Virus record (IMG/VR): IMGVR_UViG_3300045988_129382
Coordinates: 32,001 to 96,000 of that record
From: a virus
Length of the DNA: 64,000 bases
Reading direction: 5' to 3' (one strand)
The position numbers and the translations under genes are program-made. Below the pieces are notes generated by a model that was given only the letters and a program-made list of their open reading frames with translations, was not told the origin of the DNA and searched no databases. This document shows positions 3,724 through 33,088 of the stretch, piece after piece (within the stretch, counting starts at the first letter, position 1; each line of letters begins with the position of its first letter).

Positions 3724-3762
3724 AGAGGTAGTTAAAAGAGGTAGTTAAAAGAGGTAGTTAAA
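3724..3762 (+). repeat. Three perfect tandem copies of the 13-bp unit AGAGGTAGTTAAA
   Basis: Read directly: units at 3724-3736, 3737-3749 and 3750-3762. Each copy carries the left arm of the downstream terminator stem. Confidence 0.95.
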
Positions 3763-3777
3763 ACCTACCTCTTTTTT
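3750..3777 (+). terminator. Intrinsic terminator
   Basis: Stem AGAGGTAG (3750-3757) pairs with CTACCTCT (3765-3772), with a 7-nt loop, followed by a T-run. Confidence 0.8.
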
Positions 3778-3786
3778 ATTTAATAC

Positions 3787-3815
3787 TTTACAATACTTTA
3801 CACCTATGTTATACT
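3787..3815 (+). promoter_or_regulatory. Sigma-A-type early promoter (TTTACA-17-TATACT)
   Basis: TTTACA at 3787-3792, an exact 17-nt spacer, TATACT at 3810-3815. The spacer contains a second ACTTTACA box. Confidence 0.65.
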
Positions 3816-12685: not shown

Positions 12686-12839
12686 GTATTATTCTTATGA
12701 AGTGTGAGAATAACGACTGCACAAGTAGAAGTAGTGAAGCGTATGTTTATTATCTTAGTTGTAGGGAGCAAGTTTTAGCCGATTACAATGATGATGGATA
12801 ACAAAAGCATAACGAAACGAAAGGAGGCCGTTCTAATCT
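12686..12839 (+). promoter_or_regulatory. Long (~150 nt) 5' leader of the 3D-domain gene
   Basis: This untranslated stretch lies between the promoter and the SD. It looks more GC-rich than its surroundings. It contains a UUAUUCU/AGAAUAA hairpin and a 34-codon ORF (12697-12801) that has no SD. Confidence 0.4.
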
Positions 12840-13213: not shown

Positions 13214-13251
13214 AGAGGTATGATGCGTTGACATCATACCTCTTATTTTTT
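13214..13251 (+). terminator. Intrinsic terminator
   Basis: AGAGGTATGATG pairs with CATCATACCTCT (12-bp stem, 6-nt loop), followed by a T-run. Confidence 0.85.
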
Positions 13252-13273
13252 CAAAAAAATAACTTAACAAAAC

Positions 13274-13302
13274 TTTACAACTTAGTATAGGTATGGTATA
13301 CT
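13274..13302 (+). promoter_or_regulatory. Sigma-A-type early promoter (TTTACA-17-TATACT)
   Basis: TTTACA at 13274-13279, a 17-nt spacer, TATACT at 13297-13302. It is preceded by TTAACAaa, which gives the same double box as at 3787 and 11633. Confidence 0.65.
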
Positions 13303-14285: not shown

Positions 14286-14298
14286 AAGTATTAACCTA

Positions 14299-14330
14299 AA
14301 GAGATACTAACTATAGTATCTCTTTTTCTT
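14299..14330 (+). terminator. Intrinsic terminator closing the early region
   Basis: AAGAGATACTA pairs with TAGTATCTCTT (11-bp stem, 4-nt loop), followed by a T-run. Confidence 0.85.
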
Positions 14331-14399
14331 ATGTCATAGTTAGTTATATATAATGTATGAATTGTTTGAGATTTTGTGCATTTTTAGTGGTGGTAATAT

Positions 14400-17453: not shown

Positions 17454-18218
17454 ATGCATAGTCCTTTATATCAATATGATTTAGCTATGTACGATAGGGT
17501 ACATAGTCTATATGATGAGGTATTTTTTGCTGATGTAGATGAGCAATTCATTACTAATGCAAGAGAGCATCAAGGGAAGGTAGTCATGCCATTTATTGGT
17601 ATTAGTCGGTTACCTGATTTCTCTGTTAATTATGAATTCTATAATGATAGTCAAGTTAGAAGAGGTTGGACTAATCAGAAAGCTAGAAATGAAGATGGTG
17701 TAGAATTTAGAGATAAGCGTGTTATGGTACATTCACTTCCAGTTATGTTGCAGTATCAGATAGATGTATATGCTACTAAACGTGATGTGTGTGATGGTAT
17801 CATTTCTGAGTTATTGATGGAGTTTTCTGAAAGACCATATCTTAGGGTTCAGTTTATGGACATTGGCGACCATGTACAGGAGTTTCAATTAGCACTAGAA
17901 GATGGTGTTAGTGATAATACTGATGTGAGTGGTTTTGCTGAGACAAATCGGTTTTATAGAAAGTCTATAACAATTAACATTGACCATGCATATATCTATC
18001 GTGTAGATAAAGCATTAGAAGTTGATAAAATCATTATAGACATTCATGATTTACCTTTAGATGATAGTGATTTAAATAAAATTAAACCTAAAAATGGTAA
18101 AAACAACTCAGATGGGTTTGATTTTAATACTGATGGTATAAGTCCTGGTGTTAGAACTAGAGATGAGTTAAATCTTGCTAATGACGAGTCATCAGATGGG
18201 TATCATAAAATTAAATAG
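17454..18218 (+). CDS. Hypothetical neck/tail protein
   Basis: 254-codon ORF with a strong AGGAGG SD, located immediately before the sheath transcription unit. Confidence 0.55.
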   Translation: MHSPLYQYDLAMYDRVHSLYDEVFFADVDEQFITNAREHQGKVVMPFIGISRLPDFSVNYEFYNDSQVRRGWTNQKARNEDGVEFRDKRVMVHSLPVMLQYQIDVYATKRDVCDGIISELLMEFSERPYLRVQFMDIGDHVQEFQLALEDGVSDNTDVSGFAETNRFYRKSITINIDHAYIYRVDKALEVDKIIIDIHDLPLDDSDLNKIKPKNGKNNSDGFDFNTDGISPGVRTRDELNLANDESSDGYHKIK

Positions 18219-18226
18219 ATATAGTT

Positions 18227-18260
18227 AGAACGTATTCATATATTTGGATACGTTCTTTTA
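18227..18260 (+). terminator. Intrinsic terminator
   Basis: AGAACGTAT pairs with ATACGTTCT (9-bp stem, 12-nt loop), followed by TTTT. Confidence 0.7.
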
Positions 18261-18392
18261 TATATAGGTTTTGAAAACATTAAAAACAATAAATATCTGT
18301 GTATACTAAGGAAAAGATTTATATGTACAAAAGATGGGTAAAGTGAATAACTTATATTATAATATAAATTATCCGTTTTTGAGGGGGATATA

Positions 18393-20177
18393 ATGGCTAC
18401 ACTAACAATGTTAAGTCCTGGTGTATACATGAATGAGGTTGACAAAAGTCAATATACTACAGACTCCTCTACTTGTATTATTGGTATGGTGGGTGGTGCT
18501 AGGTTCGGTCCAGTTGGTGTTCCTACACTTATCTCTTCACAACAAGAGTTGATTAAAACTTTTGGTGAGCCTGTTGAGGGTGAGTATGGTTTGTATAGTG
18601 CATTAATGGCACTAACACATGCCAGTCAAGTTATCTATACACGTGTTGTACGTGGTGGTACTAAAGCTACATCAGGTAAAATCGGTACTGATAAAGTTCT
18701 TTATCGTTCTGCTGTAATTGGTGAGGCTAGTAATGGTCTTAAAATCATTCAGTCTGCTTTGACTGGTGGTAAATTCAGTGTGACTATTAAAGATGCACAG
18801 GATGTAGAGAAAGAAAAGTTTGAAGATTTAACTTTGACTTCCTCAGAAGAAAACTTTGTAGAAGCTGTAATTAATGCTAAATCAAAATTGATTCGTGTTG
18901 AGTTACAATCTACAGGTGATGTATCTGCAAAAGAGTTTGTGTTGGGAGATGCTGTAAAAGGCGGAAACACTGGTTCTAATGCACATGCCGGTAAAAAGGG
19001 TACAAATAAAGTACTCTTAGAGTCAAAATACTTTGATTCTAAATTAAATGGGTGTTCTGCTATTTTCAGTGCTATTGATGAGTTTACTCAAACATTTAAT
19101 GTAAGCATTGTTGATGAAAATGGTAATGTTGTTGAGCAATTCAGTACATTATCTTTAGACCCTAAATCTCCACGATTTGTTGAGACTATTATTAATAATG
19201 GCTCTATTCGTGTTAATGCTAAAGTAGATACAGATACATCTGTTAACTATACTGAAGATACATTAATCTTTAGTGGTGGTGATGATGGTATCTTAGGCAT
19301 TACTGCTAGTGACATCATTGGTGATGTTTCTGGTGGTGGTTTACAAAGTTTCTCTAACCCAGAAACAGTTACTATCGATGTATTAACTGCTAGTGGTTGG
19401 AGTGATGCTAGTGTTATTAAGGCTGGTTTACATATTGTTGAAAACCGTGCTGATTCTATCTTTATCGTAGACCCACCATTCGGTATGGGTGTACAGGAGA
19501 TGGTTAATTGGTCAAATGGTAAGGGTTCATATACTAATCAAAATGGTCTTGATACTTCTTATGGTGCATTGTATTGGCCGTGGTTACAAATTAGCGATAG
19601 TTTCACTAATAAAAACATTTGGCTACCACCTAGTGGTTTCGTAGCTGGTCAGTATGCATATAATGATAAGGTAGGTTTCCCTTGGTTAGCACCTGCTGGC
19701 TTGAATCGTGGTAGGATTACTAAAGCTATTAATACAGAGTATTCACCTACACAAGGTGAACGTGATGCTTTGTATGGTCATAGGAATGTTGTAAACTGTA
19801 TCACAAACTTTATCGGTCAAGGTATTGTTATCTGGGGTAACAAAACACTTCAACGTCAACCAACTGCATTGGACAGGGTTAATGTTCGTAGGTTAATGAG
19901 TTTCTTAGAACGCAGCATTGCTATGAAGTCTAGGTACTTTGTATTCGAGCAAAACTATGATGCTACTTGGGAGCGTTGGAAAACTCTTATCGAGCCAGTT
20001 TTGATTAATGCTAAAAATAATGGTGGTTTATATGATTATAAAATTGTGTTGGAAGCTACAGCACAAGATTATGAAAACAACCGTATGCCTATCAGTATTT
20101 ACGTTAAACCAATTAAAGCCGCTGAGTTCATTAGTTTGACTTTCAACATAATGAATTATAGTGCTAGTTTTAACTAA
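18393..20177 (+). CDS. Contractile tail sheath protein
   Basis: The N-terminal LSPGVYMNEVD.S signature, the 594-aa size, the C-terminal sheath-like region (NRGRI...RDALY..NVN....F.GQGIVIWG.KTL) and the tube gene immediately downstream all fit a sheath protein. Confidence 0.9.
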   Translation: MATLTMLSPGVYMNEVDKSQYTTDSSTCIIGMVGGARFGPVGVPTLISSQQELIKTFGEPVEGEYGLYSALMALTHASQVIYTRVVRGGTKATSGKIGTDKVLYRSAVIGEASNGLKIIQSALTGGKFSVTIKDAQDVEKEKFEDLTLTSSEENFVEAVINAKSKLIRVELQSTGDVSAKEFVLGDAVKGGNTGSNAHAGKKGTNKVLLESKYFDSKLNGCSAIFSAIDEFTQTFNVSIVDENGNVVEQFSTLSLDPKSPRFVETIINNGSIRVNAKVDTDTSVNYTEDTLIFSGGDDGILGITASDIIGDVSGGGLQSFSNPETVTIDVLTASGWSDASVIKAGLHIVENRADSIFIVDPPFGMGVQEMVNWSNGKGSYTNQNGLDTSYGALYWPWLQISDSFTNKNIWLPPSGFVAGQYAYNDKVGFPWLAPAGLNRGRITKAINTEYSPTQGERDALYGHRNVVNCITNFIGQGIVIWGNKTLQRQPTALDRVNVRRLMSFLERSIAMKSRYFVFEQNYDATWERWKTLIEPVLINAKNNGGLYDYKIVLEATAQDYENNRMPISIYVKPIKAAEFISLTFNIMNYSASFN

Positions 20178-20192
20178 TAAGGGGGATATGAT

Positions 20193-20753
20193 ATGAGTCA
20201 ATTAAATGCCGCTTTCATGTCCATGGACTCAACATATGAGGTTCAACGTACCAATAACTTTAGGTTTATTGTAGATTTAAGTGAGTTCTCTAATAATACA
20301 TCATCTTCAAGTGGTGATATTATTGAGTTGGCTTGTGATAGCACAGGTCTACCTACTGTATCTAATGACCCTATTGAGTTGGATTATGGTAACTCACAAA
20401 TCAAGGTAGCTGGTAAAGCAACTACTGATGATATTACAGTTGCTGTAAAAGACTTTATCGAACCTGACGTAGAGAATATTCTATGGCAATGGAGGATGAA
20501 AGTTTATAATCCTAAGACTGGTAAAGTTGGTTGGGCGAATAACTATAAACGTACATGTATGATTGTTCAATATGGTCCGAATGGTGAAGTATTGAGGAAA
20601 TGGCAATGTGATGGTTGTTGGCCGACTAGTTTAGACTTAGGTGAATTAGACTACTCTAGTGGTGATAAGAAACAAATTAGTATGAACTTGTCTGTAGATA
20701 CTGCATATCTTGTACGTGATGGACAAAATACGCATATTTATGGTACAGACTAA
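20193..20753 (+). CDS. Tail tube protein (T4 gp19/contractile-injection tube fold)
   Basis: The gene lies directly after the sheath gene. NNFRFIVDL...GLPTVS...ILWQWRMKVYNP...W.C.GCWPTSLDLGELDYSS follows the gp19-like tube pattern. Confidence 0.8.
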   Translation: MSQLNAAFMSMDSTYEVQRTNNFRFIVDLSEFSNNTSSSSGDIIELACDSTGLPTVSNDPIELDYGNSQIKVAGKATTDDITVAVKDFIEPDVENILWQWRMKVYNPKTGKVGWANNYKRTCMIVQYGPNGEVLRKWQCDGCWPTSLDLGELDYSSGDKKQISMNLSVDTAYLVRDGQNTHIYGTD

Positions 20754-20767
20754 TTTAGTTAGTTTTA

Positions 20768-20798
20768 TAGGACGTAGTGTATGCTACGTCCTATTTTT
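20768..20798 (+). terminator. Intrinsic terminator after the tube gene
   Basis: TAGGACGTAG pairs with CTACGTCCTA (10-bp stem, 6-nt loop), followed by TTTTT. Confidence 0.85.
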
Positions 20799-20808
20799 GT
20801 GTTATAAT
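20798..20808 (+). promoter_or_regulatory. Extended -10 promoter element TGTGtTATAAT fused to the terminator T-run
   Basis: Exact match to TRTGnTATAAT. The same CTATTTTTGTGTTA junction recurs at 22108 and 33079. Confidence 0.5.
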
Positions 20809-20887
20809 GTTTGTGTGTGGTTTCATACTTATCTTTATGTGTTCTCATATTAAGGAGTTTATGAGGTTAAGGTGGATTCATTGGTTA

Positions 20888-20916
20888 TTGACATAATTAA
20901 TTACATGTACTATAAT
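20888..20916 (+). promoter_or_regulatory. Perfect consensus promoter TTGACA-17-TATAAT
   Basis: TTGACA at 20888-20893, exactly 17 nt of spacer, TATAAT at 20911-20916. Confidence 0.7.
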
Positions 20917-20921
20917 TAATT

Positions 20922-20985
20922 ATGTTGATTAACAGCCATGGTCAATTAAAAAAGCTGACATCAGAATATGGTGTTAGCTTTTTTA
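20922..20985 (+). ncRNA. Candidate short transcript (~60 nt) from the consensus promoter to a terminator
   Basis: The predicted start lies 6-7 nt after the -10. Hairpin AAAGCTGACA/TGTTAGCTTT (20951-20981) is followed by a T-run. An ATG sits at the predicted start, so a leaderless 58-codon ORF (20922-21098) is an alternative. Confidence 0.3.
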
Positions 20986-21023
20986 ATTTATATACAATTT
21001 GGGGATGGTTTTTCTATCTGGGG

Positions 21024-21052
21024 TTTACATATTGTTTTTCTTGTGGTATATT
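21024..21052 (+). promoter_or_regulatory. Promoter TTTACA-17-TATATT with a TGTGg extension
   Basis: TTTACA at 21024-21029, a 17-nt spacer ending in TGTGG, TATATT at 21047-21052. Confidence 0.6.
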
Positions 21053-21058
21053 GTATGT

Positions 21059-21305
21059 AGTAGATGAGAGTGGTTACTCATCTATTATATGTAGGTGATT
21101 GCGTTACATCTACATATACCTCCCTTTTTACTGTTACGTTTGTTTATTTCCTTTCGTAGCGTAACAGTAAATTTACATATTGTCTTTCTTATTGGAAAAA
21201 TTAGGTTTTTCATGATAAGTATGCTTTGTTGCATATATTTTTCTCCGTTAGAGTGTTACATTGATTACTTCGGCTCTTATCAATGTAACACTCTTTTTCT
21301 TTTTG
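21059..21305 (+). ncRNA. Candidate ~245-nt structured sRNA
   Basis: Promoter at 21024. Perfect hairpins at 21061-21084 (8 bp), 21086-21118 (9 bp) and 21129-21169 (10 bp). Exposed ACCTCCCTTTTT at 21118-21129. A 16-bp terminator stem follows. There is no SD-preceded ORF. Confidence 0.45.
21250..21305 (+). terminator. Very strong intrinsic terminator
   Basis: AGAGTGTTACATTGAT (21250-21265) pairs with ATCAATGTAACACTCT (21279-21294) in a 16-bp perfect stem with a 13-nt loop, followed by TTTTTCTTTTT. Confidence 0.9.
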
Positions 21306-21584
21306 TATAGCAGTTTAATAAAAATTTAATTGTTTATATTAAGTTGTAGTGTTTTTGGTGATAGAGTTTTATATATAAGTTTCATGTGGTTGAGGTATTA
21401 TTCTTGTTGTTTATATCTTAACTTCATCTTATATACATAATCAGAGGGGTTTAGAGTAGATAGAATAGCATCACAATCTACTTTTACATTAGATGGTTAT
21501 ATGTAAATTTCACAGTACTTTTCGATAGAAATACTAAAGCTAGTTGCAGATAATCATGTTTTCATGTAGTAGAGGTGGTGTTTT

Positions 21585-22058
21585 ATGAATTTAATTGAGA
21601 TGTTATCTGTGTTGGGTATGAACATAAGTATAGGTGATGTTTCAATAGCAACATTACTTTTACTGACAATCATACAAATATCTCCTATTGAGTTCAATCC
21701 TTTATCTATTATATTGTCTATTATAGGTAGAGAATTGAATAAAGAAGTAATTGATAGGGTTGAGAAATTGGAAAAGTTAGGGGAGTCTAACAGTAGGGGA
21801 ATAGACAAACTATCTTATGAGGTTTCTGAAACTAGGGCAATTAACGCAAGGTCTAGATTATTGGAATTTAATGATGATTTACTGCATAATGTAGCTAAAT
21901 CTAAGGAAAGTTTTGACCATATAATGACAGACATTACGTATTATGAGCATTTCTGTAGAAAGCATGCAGATTTTCATAATCATGTTTCAGATATGGCTAT
22001 TAAAAATATAGAGGACATATATCGTAAGCGATTGTCAAGGAATGATTTCTTAAAATAG
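21585..22058 (+). CDS. Membrane-anchored hypothetical protein (moron-like insert in the tail operon)
   Basis: SD GAGGTGG. The N-terminus is hydrophobic, followed by a helical C-terminal part (RSRLLEFNDDLL...YYEHFCRKHADFHNH). The gene has its own terminator. Confidence 0.6.
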   Translation: MNLIEMLSVLGMNISIGDVSIATLLLLTIIQISPIEFNPLSIILSIIGRELNKEVIDRVEKLEKLGESNSRGIDKLSYEVSETRAINARSRLLEFNDDLLHNVAKSKESFDHIMTDITYYEHFCRKHADFHNHVSDMAIKNIEDIYRKRLSRNDFLK

Positions 22059-22081
22059 ATTAATGGTTATATTGAATATAG

Positions 22082-22116
22082 TAGAGATAGTAATACTTTT
22101 TACTATCTCTATTTTT
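22082..22116 (+). terminator. Intrinsic terminator
   Basis: TAGAGATAGTA pairs with TACTATCTCTA (11-bp stem, 8-nt loop), followed by TTTTT. TGTGtTAATTA follows directly. Confidence 0.85.
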
Positions 22117-22212
22117 GTGTTAATTATTAAATTGTTATATAGTATATATACAGTTAGGTAGTTTCATTACAATTTAGATAGTTTTTTATTATACAAAAGA
22201 CGAGGTTTTAAA

Positions 22213-23160
22213 GTGGAAGATAATAAATTTAATTTAGGTGCAGATGTTTTTGGTGATACTACATCTGACGTTACATCTACTGTTGTAGAAAAAGATATTA
22301 CTTCATATTCTGTTGAAAGTATTCCTACAAAAGAAGAGGTCAAAGTGGAAGATACAAAGAAAGAAGATTTGATTGCTAAAGAATTAGATAGGGAAAATAC
22401 AGAGGCTGGCTCTAAGAAAACTAAGTTAGCTTATGAATCTACTGTATTGTTGCCATCTAAAGGCATTTTATATAAAGAGGATAATATCCCTGCTAATATT
22501 ACATTACGTGGTATGACTACAAAAGATGAGAAAATCATGTATGCTAGTCAGGGTGCTGATGTGTTTAAGAAGATTTTGAGGAACTGTATTGTTTCTCCTG
22601 AGAACATTGATATTAATCGTTTGATTAGTGCAGATGAGATGTTCTTAATCTTGCAATTACGTATGGTTACATTCGGTGATAAATATAAAGTGCGTTCTAC
22701 TTGTCCTCATTGTGGTTCTGTAGATGAGCATGAGATTAGCTTATCTGATTTTGATATTATGTATTTAGATGATAATTTCACAGAACCGATTAATGTTGAG
22801 TTGCCTGCTAGTGGTGATACTTTGTCATTACGTTTACTTAGAAATTCAGATACAGAATATGTAGAGAAATATGCACGTAGGTTCGCAAAACAGTTTAATC
22901 AAAACTATAAAGAAGTAATGTATATTTGTAGGATGGCAAAATACATTACAGCTATTAATGGCAAACCTGTTGATTTTGTAGATGCACGTAGTTATGTAGA
23001 GAATATGGTATCTTTGGATAGTGCTAAAATGCAGACAGTTATTAATAGTATTATTGTTGGTGTAGATACAATCGTAGACCATGAGTGTACTTCTTGTGGT
23101 GAGTTATATGATTTTGCTATGCCGATTACTAGCGAGTTCTTTCGTCCCACAATTAAGTGA
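22213..23160 (+). CDS. Putative tail assembly chaperone (G-like) with a 4-Cys zinc ribbon
   Basis: Its position between tube and tape measure fits a chaperone. The N-terminus is acidic. CPHCGS...CTSCGE form two Cys pairs. The 3' end overlaps an ORF in the +1 frame. Confidence 0.55.
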   Translation: MEDNKFNLGADVFGDTTSDVTSTVVEKDITSYSVESIPTKEEVKVEDTKKEDLIAKELDRENTEAGSKKTKLAYESTVLLPSKGILYKEDNIPANITLRGMTTKDEKIMYASQGADVFKKILRNCIVSPENIDINRLISADEMFLILQLRMVTFGDKYKVRSTCPHCGSVDEHEISLSDFDIMYLDDNFTEPINVELPASGDTLSLRLLRNSDTEYVEKYARRFAKQFNQNYKEVMYICRMAKYITAINGKPVDFVDARSYVENMVSLDSAKMQTVINSIIVGVDTIVDHECTSCGELYDFAMPITSEFFRPTIK

Positions 23161-23413
23161 GTTTAATTCAGACGAATATAATAAAAAGGCTAGAGATATA
23201 AGATTTACTGCTTTTCGTTCTTTGATGAAAGAGGAGTTTCAACTAGCATATTTTGGTAAGATATCATATGAATCTGTTGAAAATATGAGTTCTTTGGAGA
23301 GAAGGACAATGTATCAGATTCTAGTTGAACAGAAAAAAGAAGAGAAAAAAGCACAAGATGAGGCTATCAAATCCGCCAAAGAGAAAAAAGCTTCTAGGGG
23401 TAGGAGAAGATAG
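23081..23413 (+). CDS. Overlapping +1-frame ORF, probable frameshift extension of the chaperone (GT-like)
   Basis: The frame is open across the chaperone stop. There is no SD or start codon between 23160 and the first internal Met, whereas the 23081 ATG has no SD. The product is a basic K/E-rich tail, and the ORF ends 37 nt before the tape measure gene. Confidence 0.45.
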   Translation: MSVLLVVSYMILLCRLLASSFVPQLSEFNSDEYNKKARDIRFTAFRSLMKEEFQLAYFGKISYESVENMSSLERRTMYQILVEQKKEEKKAQDEAIKSAKEKKASRGRRR

Positions 23414-23449
23414 CCTCTTCTCTTTATATTTTAGTAAAAGGTTGTATAT

Positions 23450-26400
23450 ATGGGTGAGTTACAGGATAGAAAACAACTGAATAAGCGTATACAACAGATA
23501 GAAGAAAAAGAAGCTAAACGTGTTGAGAAGAACATAGCTAAACGTGAAAAGCGTTTTGCTAAGATGTTAGATTCTCAGATGACGATGTTAGAGTCATTCT
23601 ATAGTACTTCAAGTAAAACAGCAAAAGGTATGCTTAAAGATAGCATGGATGGTCAACAGGCTATCTTAGAGGATAGTTTGGCAGATATGAAGCGTGAGTT
23701 TAATCTGTATGCTAAGTATATGGATAATACAACACGTAAGTATTATAAAGGTATGATTTCAGTTGCAGATGAAAGTCTGACAACTATGAAAGAGACTGTT
23801 GCTAAGCGTTTTGGTGAGATATCAGATGAATTTGATGAAGAGATGGTTGGTATGACAGCATCTTTCACAGATAGGATTAAGCGTTTCTCTAAAGGCATTA
23901 GGGACGCCGCTGTGGCATTGGAATTAACTGATATGGCTGATAGTGTTAAAAGCAGTTTGACTGATATCACTGACTCATTTATTGATAATTTCCGTGAGAG
24001 AAGTGCTAAGTTAAATGGCAATATCACTAAAGGTGATTATCAAAAGATGATTGGTAGTGTGGTAGATTCATCATATTCTATGGGTAGGAATGAGGCATCT
24101 GAGTTAGTTAATGGTATTATGGATGAGATGGGTATGAAGACTGCTAAACAGTTAGACCCTTATCTTAAAGAGGTTGCAAGTTTACATACTGCAATAGACG
24201 CCAATATTAGTGATTTATCGAGCATTATTAAAATGGATATTAATAATGGTGGTAAGGGTGAGTTACTCAAAGAGATGTCAAATATAGCTACAGGGTTAGG
24301 TTCTGATAAGGATTTAACTGTAGATAGTAATGCTATGTTATCTTCAATGAATGAGCATATTGAGGACTTATATGGTCTTTCTAAGAAGGATTCTGTTAAG
24401 TTTAAGGGCATGACTAAATCTCTTGCAATAATGGAAGGTATTCAACAACAGCAATATAACAAGGGTGTTGAAGAAGCCGGTGGTAAGATTGTAGAGTGGT
24501 CTAAGATGTCTGTACCTGAACTTCTTAAAGATGACGACTTCATGAATTTCATGGCTAGGTCTGGTATGAGTGCCGAGGAGTTCAGAGGTGCTATTGATAG
24601 TGGTCAGTCAGATATTGTTATGAAACAAATGCAAGATTTATTCATAGCTAATAAGGATGACCAATATGCTTTAAATCAGTTAAGGGAGTCTATGGGGTTC
24701 AGTTCTGATGCTGTGGCACAGATGTTCGCTGATGCTGATTCTTTGACAGGTGATTTGAAAAAAGTTACAGATAACATCAATAAGAACTCTAATTTAAATG
24801 GTTCTAATGCTGAAAACATGGCTGGGTATGCTAGTGGGCCGATAGAGAAGATAGGGAATTGGCTTTCTGATTCATTTCCTGTTAGAATGGTATCAGATTT
24901 CTTTGGTGAGTTAGATATTAAAGCCGCCAATATGGCTAATTACGCCATCATAGCCTATACAATTTCTGATAGGTGGAGTGATGTAAAAGACATGTTGAAG
25001 ATGGTTTCAACTCCATTCAAGAGTTTTGGTAAGTTCTTGTCTGGTGGTGGATTTAAAACATTATTCAGTTCTAAGGGTGCATTAAGTCAAGGTATTGAGA
25101 ATGGATTAAGGACTTTATTTACAGGTAAGGGTTCTTTCATATCTACTATTATTGATAAGTTCAAGAGTGTATTCTCATGGGTTGGTAAGGTCTTTTATGC
25201 TAATGCTCCTGATAAGATGATAAAGGCATTTTCTAAGGTAGGTTCTAAGTTAGGTGGAGTATTCTCTAGTTTCTTTGGAAAGATATTTGATAAGATTGGT
25301 AGCACAGGGATTGGAAAGTTAGCATCTAAGTTATTCAGTGGTGGTATATTTAAGGTTCTTGGTAAAGTTATACCTATTGTTGGTGGTTTCTTTGATGTAA
25401 TATTAGATTTCTTTAGTGGGATTGGTAAAGCAGATGAGTGGTTTGGTAAAGACCATAATTTACTACAAACTGTTATGAGTGGTCTAATTGGTGCTATATT
25501 CGGTACTGGTAGTGGTATAAAGTGTGAAAACTTTATGGACGATTTATTTACTGTAATGGGTGGTGCATTAAAAGGTGGTGCCGCTGGTTTTGTAGTTGGT
25601 GGGCCGTTAGGTGCTTTAGTTGGTGCTATTTTAGGTGCTATAGCTAATGCTATTGGTGGTGATAGGATAGCTAGTGCATTTAACTCTTTAACAGAATATA
25701 TTTCTGCTATACCTGATAAGATTATTGGTGTATTCACATCAGCATTTGACGCCGTACATGATTTGATTGCAGATTCATGGATAGGTAGTTTGTTAGGTAT
25801 GACTAAAAATAATCCTGATGCAAGTACAGGTGATAACACTAACACATTGATGAAGACTATGGCTTTAGCAACTCCTTTTGGAATGGTTTCTAGTCTTATA
25901 GGTTCTTTTGGTTCTCATGCTGATGGTTTATCGGAAGTTCCATATGATAATTATCCTGCTTTCTTGCACAAAGGTGAAGCAGTTTTAACTTCTCAACAAG
26001 CTGGTGCTGTTAGGTCTGATGGTGGTATACCTATCACAGGTGGTAATAGTTTAATTGATGCTTTGGGCATTGATGGTGAAGTTGGTCAAGGTAGGTCTGT
26101 TCTAGAGAGAGTGTTTAGAGGTGTATTTGGTATTACAGGTCAAGATACTTATGGTGAGGGTGGCTTATTTGGTAATATATTTAAGCATCTACTCAACTTG
26201 GGTAGTGGTGGTATCTTAGGTAACTTGATGGGTGATAGTGGTTCTATCTTCGATAAATTGAAAGAATTCTTAAAAGGTGGGGGTTCTTCATCTAGTGGTG
26301 GTTCTTCTGGTGGTGGAAAGCCAGCTAACATGTCTACAGGTAATGGTGATGGCAAAAAGATTTGGGATTTCTTAGCTAATGCTGGTTATTCTGCTGAGGG

Positions 26401-27124
26401 TATTGCTGGTATTCTAGGTAACTTGCATGAAGAGAGTGGCTTTAGAAGTGGTGCTATTGAAAATGATGGTGGTACTACTAATGAGGACTTAGTAAAACAG
26501 ATTACAGCTAGTAAGGATGCTTTTCTTGCCGATTCACGTGGTTTTGGTTTAGCACAGTGGACTGATAGTGGTCGTAAGAGTGCTTTGTGGGATTATGCAC
26601 AGTCTAAGGGTACTAGTGTTGCTGACTTCCAAACTCAGTTAGAATTCTTGTTAAAAGAGTTACAAGAAAGTTATTCTGATACATCAAATGCATTAAAGGG
26701 AAATATTACTGTTGACCAAGCATCTGAAATATTTGGTACAAACTATGAGGGTTTTGGTGCTAATTCTGCCGCTAGTCGATTAGAAAAATCTAAAAAATTC
26801 TATGAAGAAAACACTAAAGGGACACCTCAGTATGCACAAGGTACACCGTGGGTGCCAGATACACAAGTAGCGTTAATTCATGAGGGTGAGATGGTAGTAC
26901 CAGCTGATAAGAATCCTTTAAGTTCAGATAGCACTTCTAATGCTGTTGGATTACCTACAGATAATGGTGGTTCTGATGATATTGTTGATGCTATTAAATG
27001 GCAAGTATCTAGGTTAGAAAGCAAGTTAGATGCATTAATTAATGTTGTAGCTAGTAGTAATTCTAATTATAGGGGAAATGGTTTTGGTTCTGATTCTTCC
27101 GTTAATAATTTGTTGAAAGTATAG
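23450..27124 (+). CDS. Tail tape measure protein with an embedded tail-lysozyme domain
   Basis: 1224 aa in the canonical position. It has coiled-coil N-terminal and Gly-rich hydrophobic central regions. Near the C-terminus, IAGILGNLHEESGF...GFGLAQWT marks the lysozyme domain. Confidence 0.9.
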   Translation: MGELQDRKQLNKRIQQIEEKEAKRVEKNIAKREKRFAKMLDSQMTMLESFYSTSSKTAKGMLKDSMDGQQAILEDSLADMKREFNLYAKYMDNTTRKYYKGMISVADESLTTMKETVAKRFGEISDEFDEEMVGMTASFTDRIKRFSKGIRDAAVALELTDMADSVKSSLTDITDSFIDNFRERSAKLNGNITKGDYQKMIGSVVDSSYSMGRNEASELVNGIMDEMGMKTAKQLDPYLKEVASLHTAIDANISDLSSIIKMDINNGGKGELLKEMSNIATGLGSDKDLTVDSNAMLSSMNEHIEDLYGLSKKDSVKFKGMTKSLAIMEGIQQQQYNKGVEEAGGKIVEWSKMSVPELLKDDDFMNFMARSGMSAEEFRGAIDSGQSDIVMKQMQDLFIANKDDQYALNQLRESMGFSSDAVAQMFADADSLTGDLKKVTDNINKNSNLNGSNAENMAGYASGPIEKIGNWLSDSFPVRMVSDFFGELDIKAANMANYAIIAYTISDRWSDVKDMLKMVSTPFKSFGKFLSGGGFKTLFSSKGALSQGIENGLRTLFTGKGSFISTIIDKFKSVFSWVGKVFYANAPDKMIKAFSKVGSKLGGVFSSFFGKIFDKIGSTGIGKLASKLFSGGIFKVLGKVIPIVGGFFDVILDFFSGIGKADEWFGKDHNLLQTVMSGLIGAIFGTGSGIKCENFMDDLFTVMGGALKGGAAGFVVGGPLGALVGAILGAIANAIGGDRIASAFNSLTEYISAIPDKIIGVFTSAFDAVHDLIADSWIGSLLGMTKNNPDASTGDNTNTLMKTMALATPFGMVSSLIGSFGSHADGLSEVPYDNYPAFLHKGEAVLTSQQAGAVRSDGGIPITGGNSLIDALGIDGEVGQGRSVLERVFRGVFGITGQDTYGEGGLFGNIFKHLLNLGSGGILGNLMGDSGSIFDKLKEFLKGGGSSSSGGSSGGGKPANMSTGNGDGKKIWDFLANAGYSAEGIAGILGNLHEESGFRSGAIENDGGTTNEDLVKQITASKDAFLADSRGFGLAQWTDSGRKSALWDYAQSKGTSVADFQTQLEFLLKELQESYSDTSNALKGNITVDQASEIFGTNYEGFGANSAASRLEKSKKFYEENTKGTPQYAQGTPWVPDTQVALIHEGEMVVPADKNPLSSDSTSNAVGLPTDNGGSDDIVDAIKWQVSRLESKLDALINVVASSNSNYRGNGFGSDSSVNNLLKV
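26350..26815 (+). other. Phage tail lysozyme-like domain inside the tape measure protein
   Basis: GIAGILGNLHEESGF...SRGFGLAQWTDSGRKSALWDYA...QLEFLLKEL matches the Phage_lysozyme2-type signature (GNxxxESGF...GxGLxQWT). Confidence 0.75.
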
Positions 27125-32919: not shown

Positions 32920-32948
32920 TTTACATATATGGGTTTATATGTTATACT
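32920..32948 (+). promoter_or_regulatory. Sigma-A-type promoter TTTACA-17-TATACT
   Basis: TTTACA at 32920-32925, exactly 17 nt of spacer, TATACT at 32943-32948, starting 8 nt after the spike stop codon. Confidence 0.65.
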
Positions 32949-32954
32949 CTTTGT

Positions 32955-33088
32955 ATAGTTAAGTTTTTCTTTTCATTTTTCTTAACTATGGGGAGTTCTC
33001 CGAAAAGAACTCCCCGCTCCTTTCGATATAACATAATACAATCCTTAAAATAGCGTACACGTTTTATATATGTGTACGCTATTTTTTG
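32955..33088 (+). ncRNA. Candidate ~130-nt sRNA between the spike and gp25-like genes
   Basis: The unit runs from a promoter to a terminator with no SD-preceded ORF. Hairpin ATAGTTAAG/CTTAACTAT lies at 32955-32989. A GC-rich 10-bp hairpin GGGGAGTTCT/AGAACTCCCC lies at 32990-33015. GCTCCTTTCG is exposed. Confidence 0.45.
33050..33087 (+). terminator. Intrinsic terminator
   Basis: ATAGCGTACAC pairs with GTGTACGCTAT (11-bp stem, 11-nt loop), followed by TTTTTT. TGTGtTAATTT follows directly. Confidence 0.85.

What the first reader, a model, noticed from the sequence alone, without database searches (positions are those of the whole stretch)
20754..21584. ORF-poor island of consensus promoters, stacked hairpins and terminators between the tail tube and chaperone genes (candidate phage sRNA or small-ORF locus)
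Seen: the 830 bp between the tube stop codon and the next credible CDS contain no SD-preceded ORF. They do contain three host-type promoters: TGTGtTATAAT at 20798-20808, a perfect TTGACA-17-TATAAT at 20888-20916, and TTTACA-17-TATATT with a TGTGg extension at 21024-21052. They also contain three intrinsic terminators at 20768-20798, 20947-20985 and 21250-21305; the last has a 16-bp perfect stem. The unit from 21059 to 21305 would give a ~245-nt RNA with three more perfect hairpins (21061-21084, 21086-21118, 21129-21169). Between two of these hairpins lies an unpaired ACCUCCCUUUUU (21118-21129), the exact complement of the AAAGGGAGG-type Shine-Dalgarno sequences used across this window. Inference: these are host-RNAP-transcribed regulatory RNAs (anti-SD type), or a type I toxin-antitoxin-like element, inserted in the middle of a late structural operon. 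Alternative: ATG 20922 sits 6 nt after the consensus -10, so a leaderless 58-codon hydrophobic ORF (20922-21098) is conceivable. However, that ORF runs through a terminator and a promoter, and its F/Y/W/C-rich translation is what T-rich non-coding DNA yields.
Basis: partly seen in the sequence, partly recalled or inferred. Interest (0 to 1): 0.75.

Follow-up and report, generated by a model that had tools for sequence, protein, structure and literature searches.

The report
Conserved structured small RNA in phage tail module
The gene-poor gap after the tail-tube gene of this uncultured ~200-kb human-associated phage holds a real, previously undescribed ~240-nt structured small RNA gene with its own promoter and terminator. 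It probably blocks ribosome-binding sites, but its target is unknown.

Summary
In detail: the hairpins, terminators and promoters are at the stated coordinates, and the region folds far better than shuffles (z -9.7 and -8.6).

About 45 related phage genomes settle the core question. The tube protein is 99-100% identical in most of them, while the gap is a mosaic of alleles. In every allele a promoter (TTTACA-17-TGnTATATT), a structured RNA and a strong terminator sit just upstream of the next gene.

The RNA at 21059-21300 has 19 of 69 base pairs with compensatory double changes, against 0-6 in slid controls. It has 95 G.U cells against 3 A.C cells, so the + strand RNA is what folds. Its loops are invariant and it contains no conserved ORF. 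It matches no Rfam family and no bacterial genome.

The 5' third of the island (20800-20990) is a deletion scar. Sister genomes carry a 78-aa crAss001_48-like gene there.

The anti-Shine-Dalgarno idea is plausible. Unpaired CCUCCC, UUCCUUUCG and UCUCC boxes are present, and a YUCCUUUC box recurs in a second small RNA at 32920-33082 and in non-homologous alleles. No target could be identified. The type I toxin-antitoxin and small-ORF readings are not supported.

Verdict: a new member of a known kind (phage small RNA).

The parts
20767..20799 (+). T1, intrinsic terminator directly after the tube gene stop
   Evidence: The hairpin is kept with compensatory changes in other alleles (GGACGTAG/CTACGTCC, GGACATAAC/GTTATGTCC, GAGATGTAAC/GTTACATCTC).
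20798..20808 (+). P1, extended -10 promoter TGTGTTATAAT. In sister genomes it drives a 78-aa crAss001_48-like gene.
20852..20896 (+). SD AAGGAG plus an 11-codon remnant (MRLRWIHWLLT*) of the deleted crAss001_48-like gene
   Evidence: Alignment with L001/L007/L002-type alleles, which carry the full ORF at this place. Pfam PF21825, E = 4e-19.
20888..20916 (+). P2, perfect TTGACA-17-TATAAT inside a 22-nt imperfect palindrome. It is specific to this allele group. With T2 it would give only a ~65-nt transcript.
   Evidence: It is not present in L001, L017, L029 or L002-type alleles. L025 has an analogous TTGACA-17-TGTTATATT.
20944..20990 (+). T2, terminator hairpin plus T-run. In sister genomes it terminates the small gene.
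   Evidence: At the same place other alleles have different hairpin sequences (GAGCGACA..TGTCGCTC; GGGGATTGA..TCAATCCCC).
21020..21052 (+). P3, promoter of the small RNA: GGGG TTTACA-17 nt-TGG TATATT
   Evidence: The -35, 17-nt spacing, TG and -10 are kept in all allele types, including the otherwise unalignable L002 type. The spacer sequence varies.
21059..21300 (+). sRNA-1, a ~240-nt structured non-coding RNA (start inferred from P3, end from T3)
   Evidence: MFE z = -8.6. Covariance model R1 finds one copy per genome. 19 of 69 pairs have compensatory changes and 92% of cells are paired, against 27-50% in slid controls. G.U 95 against A.C 3. No Rfam match.
21060..21085 (+). H1, 5' hairpin with invariant loop AGAGUGGUU
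   Evidence: 4 of 9 pairs show double changes. The loop is invariant.
21086..21118 (+). H2, hairpin with conserved loop U-UGCGUUA
   Evidence: Helices 2 and 3 (3 pairs with double changes). Loop conservation.
21118..21129 (+). Unpaired ACCUCCCUUUUU (box 1, contains UCCC/CCUCC)
   Evidence: Kept in WIN, L001 and L025 types. It is GUCUCCGUC in L017 and L029 types.
21127..21171 (+). H3, 14-bp stem with a 17-nt loop carrying the invariant UUCCUUUCG (21148-21156, box 2)
   Evidence: 6 pairs with double changes (helices 4 and 5). CCTTTCG occurs only twice on the + strand of the window, here and in sRNA-2.
21187..21235 (+). Weak hairpins H4 (invariant UCUUAUUGGAA in its 5' arm; no covariation) and H5 (2 compensatory pairs)
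   Evidence: Helices 7 and 9.
21238..21247 (+). Unpaired UUUUUCUCCG (box 3)
   Evidence: CUCC is kept in all alleles.
21250..21304 (+). T3, 16-bp perfect stem, invariant 13-nt loop UUACUUCGGCUCU, then UUUUCUUUUU
   Evidence: 4 stem pairs have compensatory changes in three combinations.
21370..21377 (+). TATATATA, candidate late promoter for the next gene. It sits at a fixed 215 nt from that gene's ATG in all homologous alleles.
   Evidence: The function is inferred only.
21585..22058 (+). p157, a protein of unknown function with a hydrophobic-looking N-terminus. It always follows the RNA gene and is not a documented chaperone.
32920..33082 (+). sRNA-2 (outside the finding): a second promoter-hairpins-terminator unit with invariant unpaired CGCUCCUUUC

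Best explanation
The stretch 20754-22212 is an accessory, recombination-prone slot between the tail-tube gene and the baseplate-hub-like gene. Each cassette in it has its own promoter and terminator, as 'morons' do.

In this genome the first cassette has lost its 78-aa gene. Only promoter P1, an 11-codon stub, a new consensus promoter P2 and terminator T2 remain.

The conserved core is the second cassette. A host-type extended -10 promoter (P3) makes a ~240-nt RNA, sRNA-1 (about 21059-21300). The RNA folds into a 5' hairpin, two further long hairpins, two weak ones and a very strong terminator hairpin.

Shown:
- The RNA fold is under selection.
- The + strand RNA is the folding molecule.
- The loops are invariant.
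- There is no conserved ORF.
- The promoter and terminator are conserved.

Inferred: the RNA acts in trans by base-pairing. Its unpaired C/U-rich boxes (ACCUCCCUU, UUCCUUUCG, UUCUCCG) resemble the 3' tail of 16S rRNA. They would bind Shine-Dalgarno regions of phage or host mRNAs and block translation initiation, as the UCCC-box small RNAs of Firmicutes do. The target mRNAs are not identified.

My confidence that this is a real non-coding RNA gene is about 0.9. My confidence in the anti-SD trans mechanism is about 0.4.
For: Structure
- z-scores -9.7 and -8.6.
- On 23 distinct sequences, 92.3% of cells pair. 19 of 69 pairs have changes on both sides, against 0-6 when partners are slid. 0 of 500 shuffles reach the observed values.
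- The terminator and H5 covariation were also found by RNAalifold on an alignment not fitted to the structure.
- Strand: 95 G.U/U.G cells against 3 A.C/C.A cells.

Gene signals
- P3's -35, 17-nt spacing, TG and -10 are kept in all alleles while the spacer changes. T3 is kept in all homologous alleles.

Non-coding
- ORFs of at least 45 codons differ or vanish between alleles.
- Indels are of 1, 2, 3, 5 and 8 nt.

Loops
- Unpaired columns are invariant more often than paired ones (57% against 46%).

Slot
- Relatives L044 and L047 have the hub-like gene directly after the tube gene. L038 has other genes there. Streptococcus phage GXN1 has two small protein genes there.
- Tube DNA is 94-98% identical where the RNA is 76-95% identical.

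Anti-SD
- Boxes 1 to 3 are predicted unpaired.
- CCTTTCG occurs only at 21150 and 33019 on the + strand of the window.
- TCCTTT occurs 23 times in 64 kb, yet it is present in sRNA-1, in sRNA-2, twice in the non-homologous L002-type RNA and in the L039-type RNA.
- sRNA-2 keeps CGCUCCUUUC invariant and unpaired in all sequences that span it (12 folded; alignment).
- The architecture (5' hairpin, unpaired C-rich box in the most conserved part, terminator) is that described for S. aureus Rsa RNAs and RNAIII (PMC2790875) and for streptococcal csRNAs (PMC3091779).
Against: - There is no expression data.
- No target was established. Duplex scans of 58-66 start regions and of the whole window gave only scattered hits with z of -2 to -5.
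- The one site matched perfectly over 9 nt by both RNAs is the SD-like ACGAAAGGAGG at 12817. It does not covary with the G-to-A change in sRNA-2 of the L073-type genomes, and it lies 12 nt from its ATG.
- The tube-gene start region is not favoured when whole RNAs are compared across alleles.
- The 16-nt match to the p157 coding region is allele-specific.
- Box 1 is not kept in the L017 and L029 alleles.
- In the L039 RNA the motif lies in a stem.
- The motif was chosen after seeing the data.
- The long invariant loops AGAGUGGUU, UGCGUUA and UUACUUCGGCUCU are not anti-SD-like. They point to further, unexplained contacts.
- The covariation alignment was fitted to the model's structure. The sequences fall into only about five lineages of one phage species complex.
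Confidence: 0.5

Rival explanations
1. The RNA binds a protein and acts as a decoy or scaffold. It could sequester or mimic the RNA partner of a host factor (an RNA-guided defence nuclease, a ribonuclease, a ribosome-associated factor) or serve a phage protein. The invariant loops would be the protein contacts.
For: - Three long loops are invariant while their stems change: AGAGUGGUU, U-UGCGUUA and UUACUUCGGCUCU.
- A near-repeat GAGAGUG(G)UUAC occurs in the H1 loop and in the 5' arm of T3.
- Phage small RNAs that mimic guide RNAs are documented in intergenic regions with their own promoter (bioRxiv 10.64898/2026.06.03.729762).
- TnpB elements insert into this same gap in sister genomes.
Against: - There is no hit to tracrRNA, CRISPR repeat families or any other Rfam family, even at E up to 10.
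- Model R1 does not match the TnpB insertion or its right end.
- No repeated short motif of the kind sponges carry was seen.
- The host and its defence systems are unknown, so mimicry could not be tested directly.
Confidence: 0.2
2. The RNA is a cis-acting leader of the downstream gene(s). It would be an attenuator, a riboswitch-like element or a processive antitermination element, and transcription from P3 would continue through T3 into p157 and the tail genes.
For: - The unit always lies directly upstream of p157, in all alleles and in L039.
- Its length (~240 nt) and multi-stem layout ending in a terminator resemble Firmicute leaders.
- The H1 loop GAGAGUGGUUAC could in principle pair with the 3' arm of T3 (read).
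Against: - T3 is a 16-bp perfect stem (dG about -19 kcal/mol) with a U-tract, and no adjacent alternative pairing was found.
- No T-box or riboswitch family matches.
- p157 has its own conserved candidate promoter TATATATA at a fixed 215 nt.
- The p157 homologue in Faecalibacterium phage Pioen directly follows another gene, with no such leader.
- sRNA-2 has the same layout in front of an unrelated gp25-like gene.
Confidence: 0.1
3. The island is transcriptional punctuation and decay debris. Terminators insulate the abundant tube mRNA, promoters restart transcription, and the inner hairpins have no function of their own.
For: - Terminator-plus-promoter modules are common in this window, for example at 3747-3815, 13214-13302, 14298-14352 and 18227-18266.
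- The 5' third of the island is indeed a deletion scar.
- The overall number of promoter-like sites is not above chance.
Against: - The inner hairpins H1, H2, H3 and H5 are not terminators, yet they show 15 pairs with compensatory changes.
- Their loops are invariant while the surrounding non-coding DNA diverges to 76% identity or beyond recognition.
- A promoter pointing straight into a terminator 240 nt away is kept in all alleles.
Confidence: 0.07
4. The region encodes small proteins, either the leaderless 58-codon ORF 20922-21098 or the 71-codon ORF 21095-21310. Alternatively it is a type I toxin-antitoxin pair.
For: - ATG 20922 lies 5 nt after the perfect -10.
- The translated products are hydrophobic.
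- The neighbouring p157 has a hydrophobic-looking N-terminus.
Against: - Neither ORF is conserved. The 58-codon ORF is 46 codons with a different end in L018 and is absent from the L001, L017, L025 and L029 types. The 71-codon ORF is absent or shifted.
- Indels are not multiples of three.
- The 58-codon ORF runs through T2 and P3.
- PHROG search gave no hit for either ORF.
- RNA-to-p157 complementarity is not conserved.
Confidence: 0.03

Closest known systems
C-rich (UCCC-box) anti-SD small RNAs of Firmicutes: S. aureus RNAIII, RsaE/RoxS and other Rsa RNAs (PMC2790875)
   Same: - Stand-alone gene with a promoter and an intrinsic terminator.
- A 5' hairpin, stems that vary while the fold is kept, and unpaired C-rich boxes (here CCUCCC, UCCUUUC, UCUCC) in the most conserved parts.
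- Several boxes per RNA.
   Different: - It is encoded by a large, apparently virulent phage inside its tail-gene module, not by the host.
- There is no sequence or Rfam relation.
- The boxes are longer and resemble the 16S 3' tail (UCCUUUC) rather than UCCC alone.
- It also has long invariant loops that are not C-rich.
- Target binding is untested.
Streptococcal csRNAs (cia-dependent small RNAs; PMC3091779)
   Same: Unpaired anti-SD sequence between stem-loops, and several related RNAs per genome sharing the seed. Here sRNA-1 and sRNA-2 share CCUUUCG.
   Different: - csRNAs are 87-151 nt with two stem-loops and an anti-AUG (CAU) next to the anti-SD.
- csRNAs are driven by CiaR promoters.
- sRNA-1 is ~240 nt with five to six helices, and no conserved anti-AUG was noted.
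- No Rfam match was found.
Phage 'morons': promoter-gene-terminator cassettes inserted between late genes of lambdoid and other tailed phages (my own knowledge)
   Same: - Autonomous transcription units flanked by a terminator and a promoter, sitting between two structural genes.
- Absent from more distant relatives.
- Variable cargo between close relatives (crAss001_48-like gene, RNA, p157, TnpB).
   Different: The conserved cargo here is a non-coding RNA, and the phage is a ~200-kb myovirus-like phage rather than a temperate lambdoid.
Known phage-encoded regulatory RNAs (lambda OOP, P22 sar, P1/P7 c4, DicF, IsrK, AgvB/AsxR; RNA anti-CRISPRs such as rAcrIIA1)
   Same: A short non-coding transcript from a host-type promoter in an intergenic gap of a phage genome.
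   Different: - There is no antisense partner at the locus.
- There is no similarity to any of these RNAs or to CRISPR or tracrRNA families.
- Most known examples come from temperate phages of Gram-negative hosts.

Membership tests
Any curated RNA family (Rfam 15) | Score at or above the family's gathering threshold | tested here: not met
   No match at gathering in the whole window. The best sub-threshold hit is Thr_leader, 40 bits against 55, on the P2-T2 stub at 20876-20987. Nothing was found on sRNA-1 at E up to 10.
Stand-alone bacterial-type small RNA gene | Own sigma-70/sigma-A type promoter | tested here: met
   TTTACA-17-TGG TATATT. The elements and the spacing are conserved in all alleles. 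Activity was not tested.
Stand-alone bacterial-type small RNA gene | Intrinsic terminator at the 3' end | tested here: met
   16-bp stem plus U-tract, with 4 covarying pairs.
Stand-alone bacterial-type small RNA gene | Secondary structure conserved with compensatory changes, and no conserved ORF | tested here: met
   for structure; for ORFs.
Stand-alone bacterial-type small RNA gene | A discrete transcript is detected | not testable with these tools
   No transcriptome data are available.
Anti-SD (C-rich box) trans-acting small RNAs | Unpaired, conserved C/U-rich motif complementary to SD sequences | tested here: met
   Boxes at 21118-21129, 21147-21156 and 21238-21247 are unpaired in the MFE and centroid folds. 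UUCCUUUCG is invariant. The motif recurs in sRNA-2 and in replaced alleles.
Anti-SD (C-rich box) trans-acting small RNAs | Identified mRNA target whose start region pairs with the box, ideally with covariation | tested here: inconclusive
   Searches found no target that stands out across alleles. Only 64 kb of about 200 kb of phage genome was searched, and no host genome was available.
Type I toxin-antitoxin | Small hydrophobic toxin ORF plus an RNA complementary to its mRNA | tested here: not met
   There is no conserved small ORF. p157 is 157 aa. Complementarity of the RNA to p157 mRNA is confined to one allele.
T-box, riboswitch or attenuator leader | Match to a known aptamer or leader family, and a terminator/antiterminator alternative | tested here: not met
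   No Rfam hit. No adjacent antiterminator was seen. A separate downstream promoter candidate exists.
RNA anti-CRISPR or guide-RNA mimic | Sequence and structure similarity to the host's CRISPR repeat, tracrRNA or omega RNA | tested here: inconclusive
   No hit to Rfam CRISPR-DR or tracrRNA models. R1 does not match the TnpB element ends. The host is unknown, so its own repeats could not be compared.
TnpB omega RNA | Lies at the 3' end of a tnpB gene or the right end of an IS200/IS605-family element | tested here: not met
   There is no tnpB in this part of the window. In L003 the TnpB element is inserted about 140 nt downstream of the RNA.
Moron-like accessory cassette | Own promoter and terminator, between late genes, absent from relatives | tested here: met
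   for the signals. for relatives without the island.

The most novel reading that the evidence does not exclude
This phage group carries a set of small RNAs that mimic the 3' tail of 16S rRNA: sRNA-1, sRNA-2 and the non-homologous RNAs that replace sRNA-1 in other alleles, all keeping YUCCUUUC. Made from strong host-type promoters inside the late-gene region, they would compete with ribosomes for strong Shine-Dalgarno sequences. That would reprogramme translation during infection, either shutting down a class of host mRNAs or timing the phage's own structural genes. It would be a general phage strategy rather than a one-target regulator.
Probability: 0.15. Interest if true: 0.8.

Novelty: new member of a known kind. 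Interest (0 to 1): 0.5.

Why it matters
Few regulatory RNAs are known from virulent or very large phages of Gram-positive bacteria, and none from this uncultured, human-associated group.

This RNA comes with natural covariation evidence, defined ends, a second RNA that shares its seed, and allelic replacements that keep the same short motif. That makes it a ready candidate for experiments on how phages use RNA to control translation.

The result also shows that the gap after the tail-tube gene is a hot spot where small genes, RNAs and TnpB elements are exchanged. That matters for annotating 'empty' regions in metagenomic phage genomes.

Tried and rejected
- Rfam at E up to 10 on the region and at gathering on the whole window and sister loci gave nothing. 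The only hit was a sub-threshold Thr_leader match on the P2-T2 stub, which I put down to the terminator hairpin and AT-rich sequence.
- tRNA and tmRNA scan found none.
- BLASTN against 50,697 phage records matched only 189 nt of a Bacillus phage tube gene, so annotated relatives gave no help.
- Pattern scan of 185,579 bacterial and archaeal species genomes for TTCCTTTCG..TCTTATTGGAA gave 31 hits in unrelated taxa. None matched model R1, so they are chance matches.
- Metagenome scan for the T3 loop returned only the same phage lineage and no deeper variants.
- RNAalifold on the plain MAFFT alignment misaligned the divergent alleles in the 5' half. I therefore used the window's MFE structure, a covariance model and re-alignment, which biases the counts towards that structure.
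- Target hunting is summarised under 'evidence against' in the best explanation. No candidate was conserved or covarying across alleles.
- The 19/20 complementarity of 20909-20928 to the sheath gene 3' end has E about 0.02 and lies mostly upstream of the P2 start. I treated it as probable chance.
- Homology of sRNA-1 to the TnpB element ends was tested with R1 and not found.
- Host identification failed. The nearest sheath proteins are from Streptococcus, Bacillus and Listeria phages at 34-43% identity. The TnpB is about 63% identical to plasmid copies in Finegoldia, Paenibacillus and Butyrivibrio. These point only to Bacillota.
- Small-ORF readings were rejected on conservation.
Full report
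**1. Context**

The window is C-poor on its + strand (GC about 31%, GC skew +0.16 to +0.43 in every 1-kb bin). Essentially all long ORFs lie on that strand. The gene order around the finding is:
- tail sheath, 18393-20177
- tail tube, 20193-20753
- the 831-nt gap
- a 157-aa protein of unknown function, here called p157 (21585-22058)
- a T4_baseplate-family protein (22213-23160)
- a 1224-aa ORF at 23450-27124 in the position and of the size of a tape measure protein; I did not test that call

The tube protein recovers 48 loci from IMG/VR. Most come from human-microbiome samples, on contigs of up to 213 kb. The closest cultured phages by sheath protein are Streptococcus phage vB_SagM-GXN1 (41% identity), Bacillus SP-15 and Listeria LIS04. 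The source is therefore an uncultured ~200-kb myovirus-like phage, probably infecting a member of the Bacillota.

**2. The observation**

- The gap folds far better than dinucleotide shuffles: z = -9.7 for the whole gap and -8.6 for 21055-21310.
- Terminator-like sites are enriched in 18000-24000, 7 against 1.6 expected.
- The total number of promoter-like sites is not enriched, 21 against 30.7 expected.
- The 12/12 promoter at 20888-20916 is the only perfect match in the 24 kb scanned.
- CCTCCC occurs once on the + strand of the window. About 0.4 copies are expected from base composition (my arithmetic from the base counts), so the motif alone is weak evidence.
- One small correction: AAGGAG-N3-ATG at 20861 opens an 11-codon ORF.

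**3. What relatives show**

In about 42 loci the tube protein is 99-100% identical to the window's. The gap between tube and p157 is nevertheless a mosaic. It is 757-1038 nt long, 2233 nt in one genome and 365 nt in a more distant one. Identity to the window ranges from 98% down to unalignable. The alleles fall into about six types.

Three conclusions follow.

(a) Many alleles carry a 78-aa gene directly after T1 and the extended -10 TGTGTTATAAT. It has a good Shine-Dalgarno sequence and belongs to Pfam crAss001_48 (E = 4e-19). The window's allele has lost this gene. It keeps the promoter, the 5' UTR, the Shine-Dalgarno sequence, 11 codons and the terminator. It also has an allele-specific segment containing the perfect promoter P2. 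P2 to T2 would give only a ~65-nt transcript, and its function cannot be assessed by comparison.

(b) Relatives whose tube proteins are 68% and 47% identical (L044, L047) have the T4_baseplate-like gene directly after the tube gene. L038 has two unrelated genes there, and phage GXN1 has two small protein genes. The stretch 20754-22212 is therefore an accessory slot.

(c) One sister genome has a 1402-bp TnpB element inserted after about 21438. Another allele type has a TnpB fragment and a right-end remnant.

**4. The conserved core is an RNA gene**

In every allele a promoter of the form GGGG-TTTAC(A/T)-17 nt-TGnTATATT is kept while its spacer sequence changes. This includes the L002 type, which BLAST cannot align to the window in the gap.

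In five allele types the promoter is followed by a homologous ~240-260-nt sequence ending in the 16-bp terminator. Sixteen distinct sequences were aligned (A1).
- RNAalifold on that neutral alignment already recovers compensatory changes in the terminator (4 pairs) and in a small hairpin (2 pairs).
- I built a covariance model with the window's own MFE helices (R1). It finds exactly one copy per genome. It finds none in the L002-type, L039 or more distant loci, in phage GXN1, or in the 31 bacterial pattern hits.
- On the model-fitted alignment of 23 distinct sequences, 92.3% of cells form standard pairs, against 28-50% when partners are slid.
- 19 of 69 pairs show changes on both sides, against 0-6 when slid. 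0 of 500 column shuffles reach the observed values (16 sequences).
- The support is spread over H1 (4 pairs), H2 (3), H3 (6), H5 (2) and T3 (4). H4 has none.
- G.U/U.G cells outnumber A.C/C.A cells 95 to 3. Base composition alone would give roughly 2 to 1. The folded molecule is therefore + strand RNA, not DNA or the antisense strand.
- Unpaired columns are at least as conserved as paired ones, with 57% against 46% invariant. Invariant loop blocks are AGAGUGGUU (H1), UGCGUUA (H2), UUCCUUUCG (H3) and AUUACUUCGGCUCUUAU (T3). UCUUAUUGGAA, which the MFE fold places in the 5' arm of H4, is also invariant.

Caveats: the alignment is fitted to the structure, and the sequences represent about five lineages of one species complex.

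**5. Not coding**

The 58-codon ORF (20922-21098) runs through T2 and P3. It has a different end in L018 and does not exist in four other allele types. The 71-codon ORF is likewise not conserved. Alleles differ by indels of 1, 2, 3, 5 and 8 nt inside the RNA. PHROG search gave no hit for either ORF.

**6. Mechanism**

What can be said from anatomy is this. The RNA has a 5' hairpin, unpaired C/U-rich boxes and a terminator. The boxes are ACCUCCCUUUUU (21118-21129), UUUCCUUUCG in the H3 loop (21147-21156) and UUUUUCUCCG (21238-21247). This layout is described for the UCCC-box small RNAs of S. aureus, which bind Shine-Dalgarno sequences (PMC2790875), and for streptococcal csRNAs (PMC3091779).

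Three further observations strengthen the reading.
- A second unit with the same promoter type lies at 32920-33082. It has three hairpins with 6 compensatory pairs. Its unpaired CGCUCCUUUC is invariant in all sequences that span it.
- CCTTTCG occurs only twice on the + strand of the window, once in each RNA.
- The RNAs that replace sRNA-1 in the L002-type and L039 alleles are not homologous to it. They again contain (G/C)UUCCUUUCUU, GCUCCUUUCUU or AUUCCUUUG. The background frequency of TCCTTT is 23 per 64 kb.

From my own knowledge, the motif resembles the 16S rRNA 3' tail of Firmicutes, CACCUCCUUUCU.

Against the reading, no specific target was found. The details are listed under 'evidence against' in the best explanation.

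I therefore hold the trans-acting anti-SD mechanism at about 0.4. The existence of a functional RNA gene I hold at about 0.9.

**7. Rivals**

- Protein-binding or decoy RNA. The long invariant non-C-rich loops fit this reading. Rfam has no matching CRISPR, tracrRNA or other model, and the host is unknown.
- Cis-acting leader. This is disfavoured by the very strong T3 and by a conserved TATATATA at a fixed 215 nt before p157. That motif follows terminators upstream of several late genes and may be the late promoter. p157 homologues also exist without any leader, and sRNA-2 sits before an unrelated gene.
- Mere punctuation and debris. This is true for 20800-20990, but not for the covarying inner hairpins.
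- Small proteins or type I toxin-antitoxin: rejected (section 5).

**8. Novelty and verdict**

The RNA is absent from Rfam and from one genome each of 185,579 bacterial and archaeal species. It is confined to this phage lineage in the collections searched.

It is a new member of a known kind: a phage-encoded small RNA in a moron-like cassette. It has unusually good comparative support and a suggestive 16S-tail-like motif shared with a second RNA. Interest is moderate. A specialist would not be astonished, but the locus is a well-defined experimental lead.

Noticed in passing
window 32920-33082: A second small-RNA-like unit lies between the gpV-like spike gene and the gp25-like wedge gene. It has promoter TTTACA-17-TGTTATACT, three hairpins with 6 compensatory pairs, an invariant unpaired CGCUCCUUUC and a terminator.
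   Followed up: partly
L003 4558-6795 (insertion after window ~21438): A sister genome carries a 1402-bp insertion encoding a 417-aa TnpB (OrfB_IS605 plus Cas12f1-like TNB domains). ATACAT is present at both junctions. The closest plasmid copies, about 63% identical, are in Finegoldia, Paenibacillus and Butyrivibrio.
   Followed up: partly
L002, L019, L023, L026, L034: gap positions ~340-570: These alleles carry a ~200-nt structured segment after the small gene. In L019 it directly follows a TnpB C-terminal fragment (..CPVCGTHHDRDINSAINIL..). It looks like an orphaned right end or omega-RNA remnant of an IS605-family element.
   Followed up: no
window 20852-20896; L001 gap 63-344: A 78-aa crAss001_48-family gene (PF21825, PHROG 774, function unknown) is present in many sister genomes and deleted in this one.
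   Followed up: yes
window 14345, 18259, 21370, 22143, 40754: TATATATA occurs 6 times on the + strand. Five copies lie in intergenic DNA upstream of genes (55 to 298 nt from the next start). At least three of them directly follow a terminator. It is a candidate late promoter, reminiscent of T4's TATAAATA.
   Followed up: partly
window 3787-3815, 13274-13302, ~11640: The same promoter class (aaCTTTACA-17-TGnTATAcT) sits just after terminators and drives small protein genes scattered among structural genes. The small gene after 3787-3815 looks hydrophobic in translation. Moron-like cassettes are therefore common in this genome.
   Followed up: no
window 3724-3775: Three tandem copies of AAAGAGGTAGTTA run into the terminator hairpin 3747-3775.
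   Followed up: no
window 1-64000: The coding strand is strongly and uniformly C-poor: C 11%, G 21%, with GC skew +0.16 to +0.43 in every 1-kb bin.
   Followed up: no
window 21585-22058; L172 3926-4354: p157 has homologues only in uncultured human-gut phages and in Faecalibacterium phages Pioen and Roos. In Pioen the homologue lies a few genes downstream of a reverse transcriptase gene. Its N-terminal ~48 residues look hydrophobic.
   Followed up: partly
window 21138-21160 with 21796-21811: In this allele only, the H3 loop of sRNA-1 can pair over 16 consecutive nt (3 of them G.U, dG about -21 kcal/mol) with codons ~71-76 of p157. This is the best match of that loop in the whole window. It is not kept in the L001, L017 or L029 alleles.
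   Followed up: yes
window 12817-12827: ACGAAAGGAGG lies 12 nt before the ATG of a 109-aa gene of unknown function and is conserved in 33 relatives. It is the only site in the window that perfectly complements 9 nt of both the sRNA-1 H3 loop and the sRNA-2 seed.
   Followed up: partly
window 20909-20928 with 20143-20162: There is 19/20 complementarity between the P2 -10/start region and the 3' end of the sheath gene. E is about 0.02, so it is possibly chance.
   Followed up: no
L080, L082 (upstream of the gp25-like gene): Two relatives have an extra ~170-bp segment between sRNA-2's terminator and the gp25-like gene.
   Followed up: no
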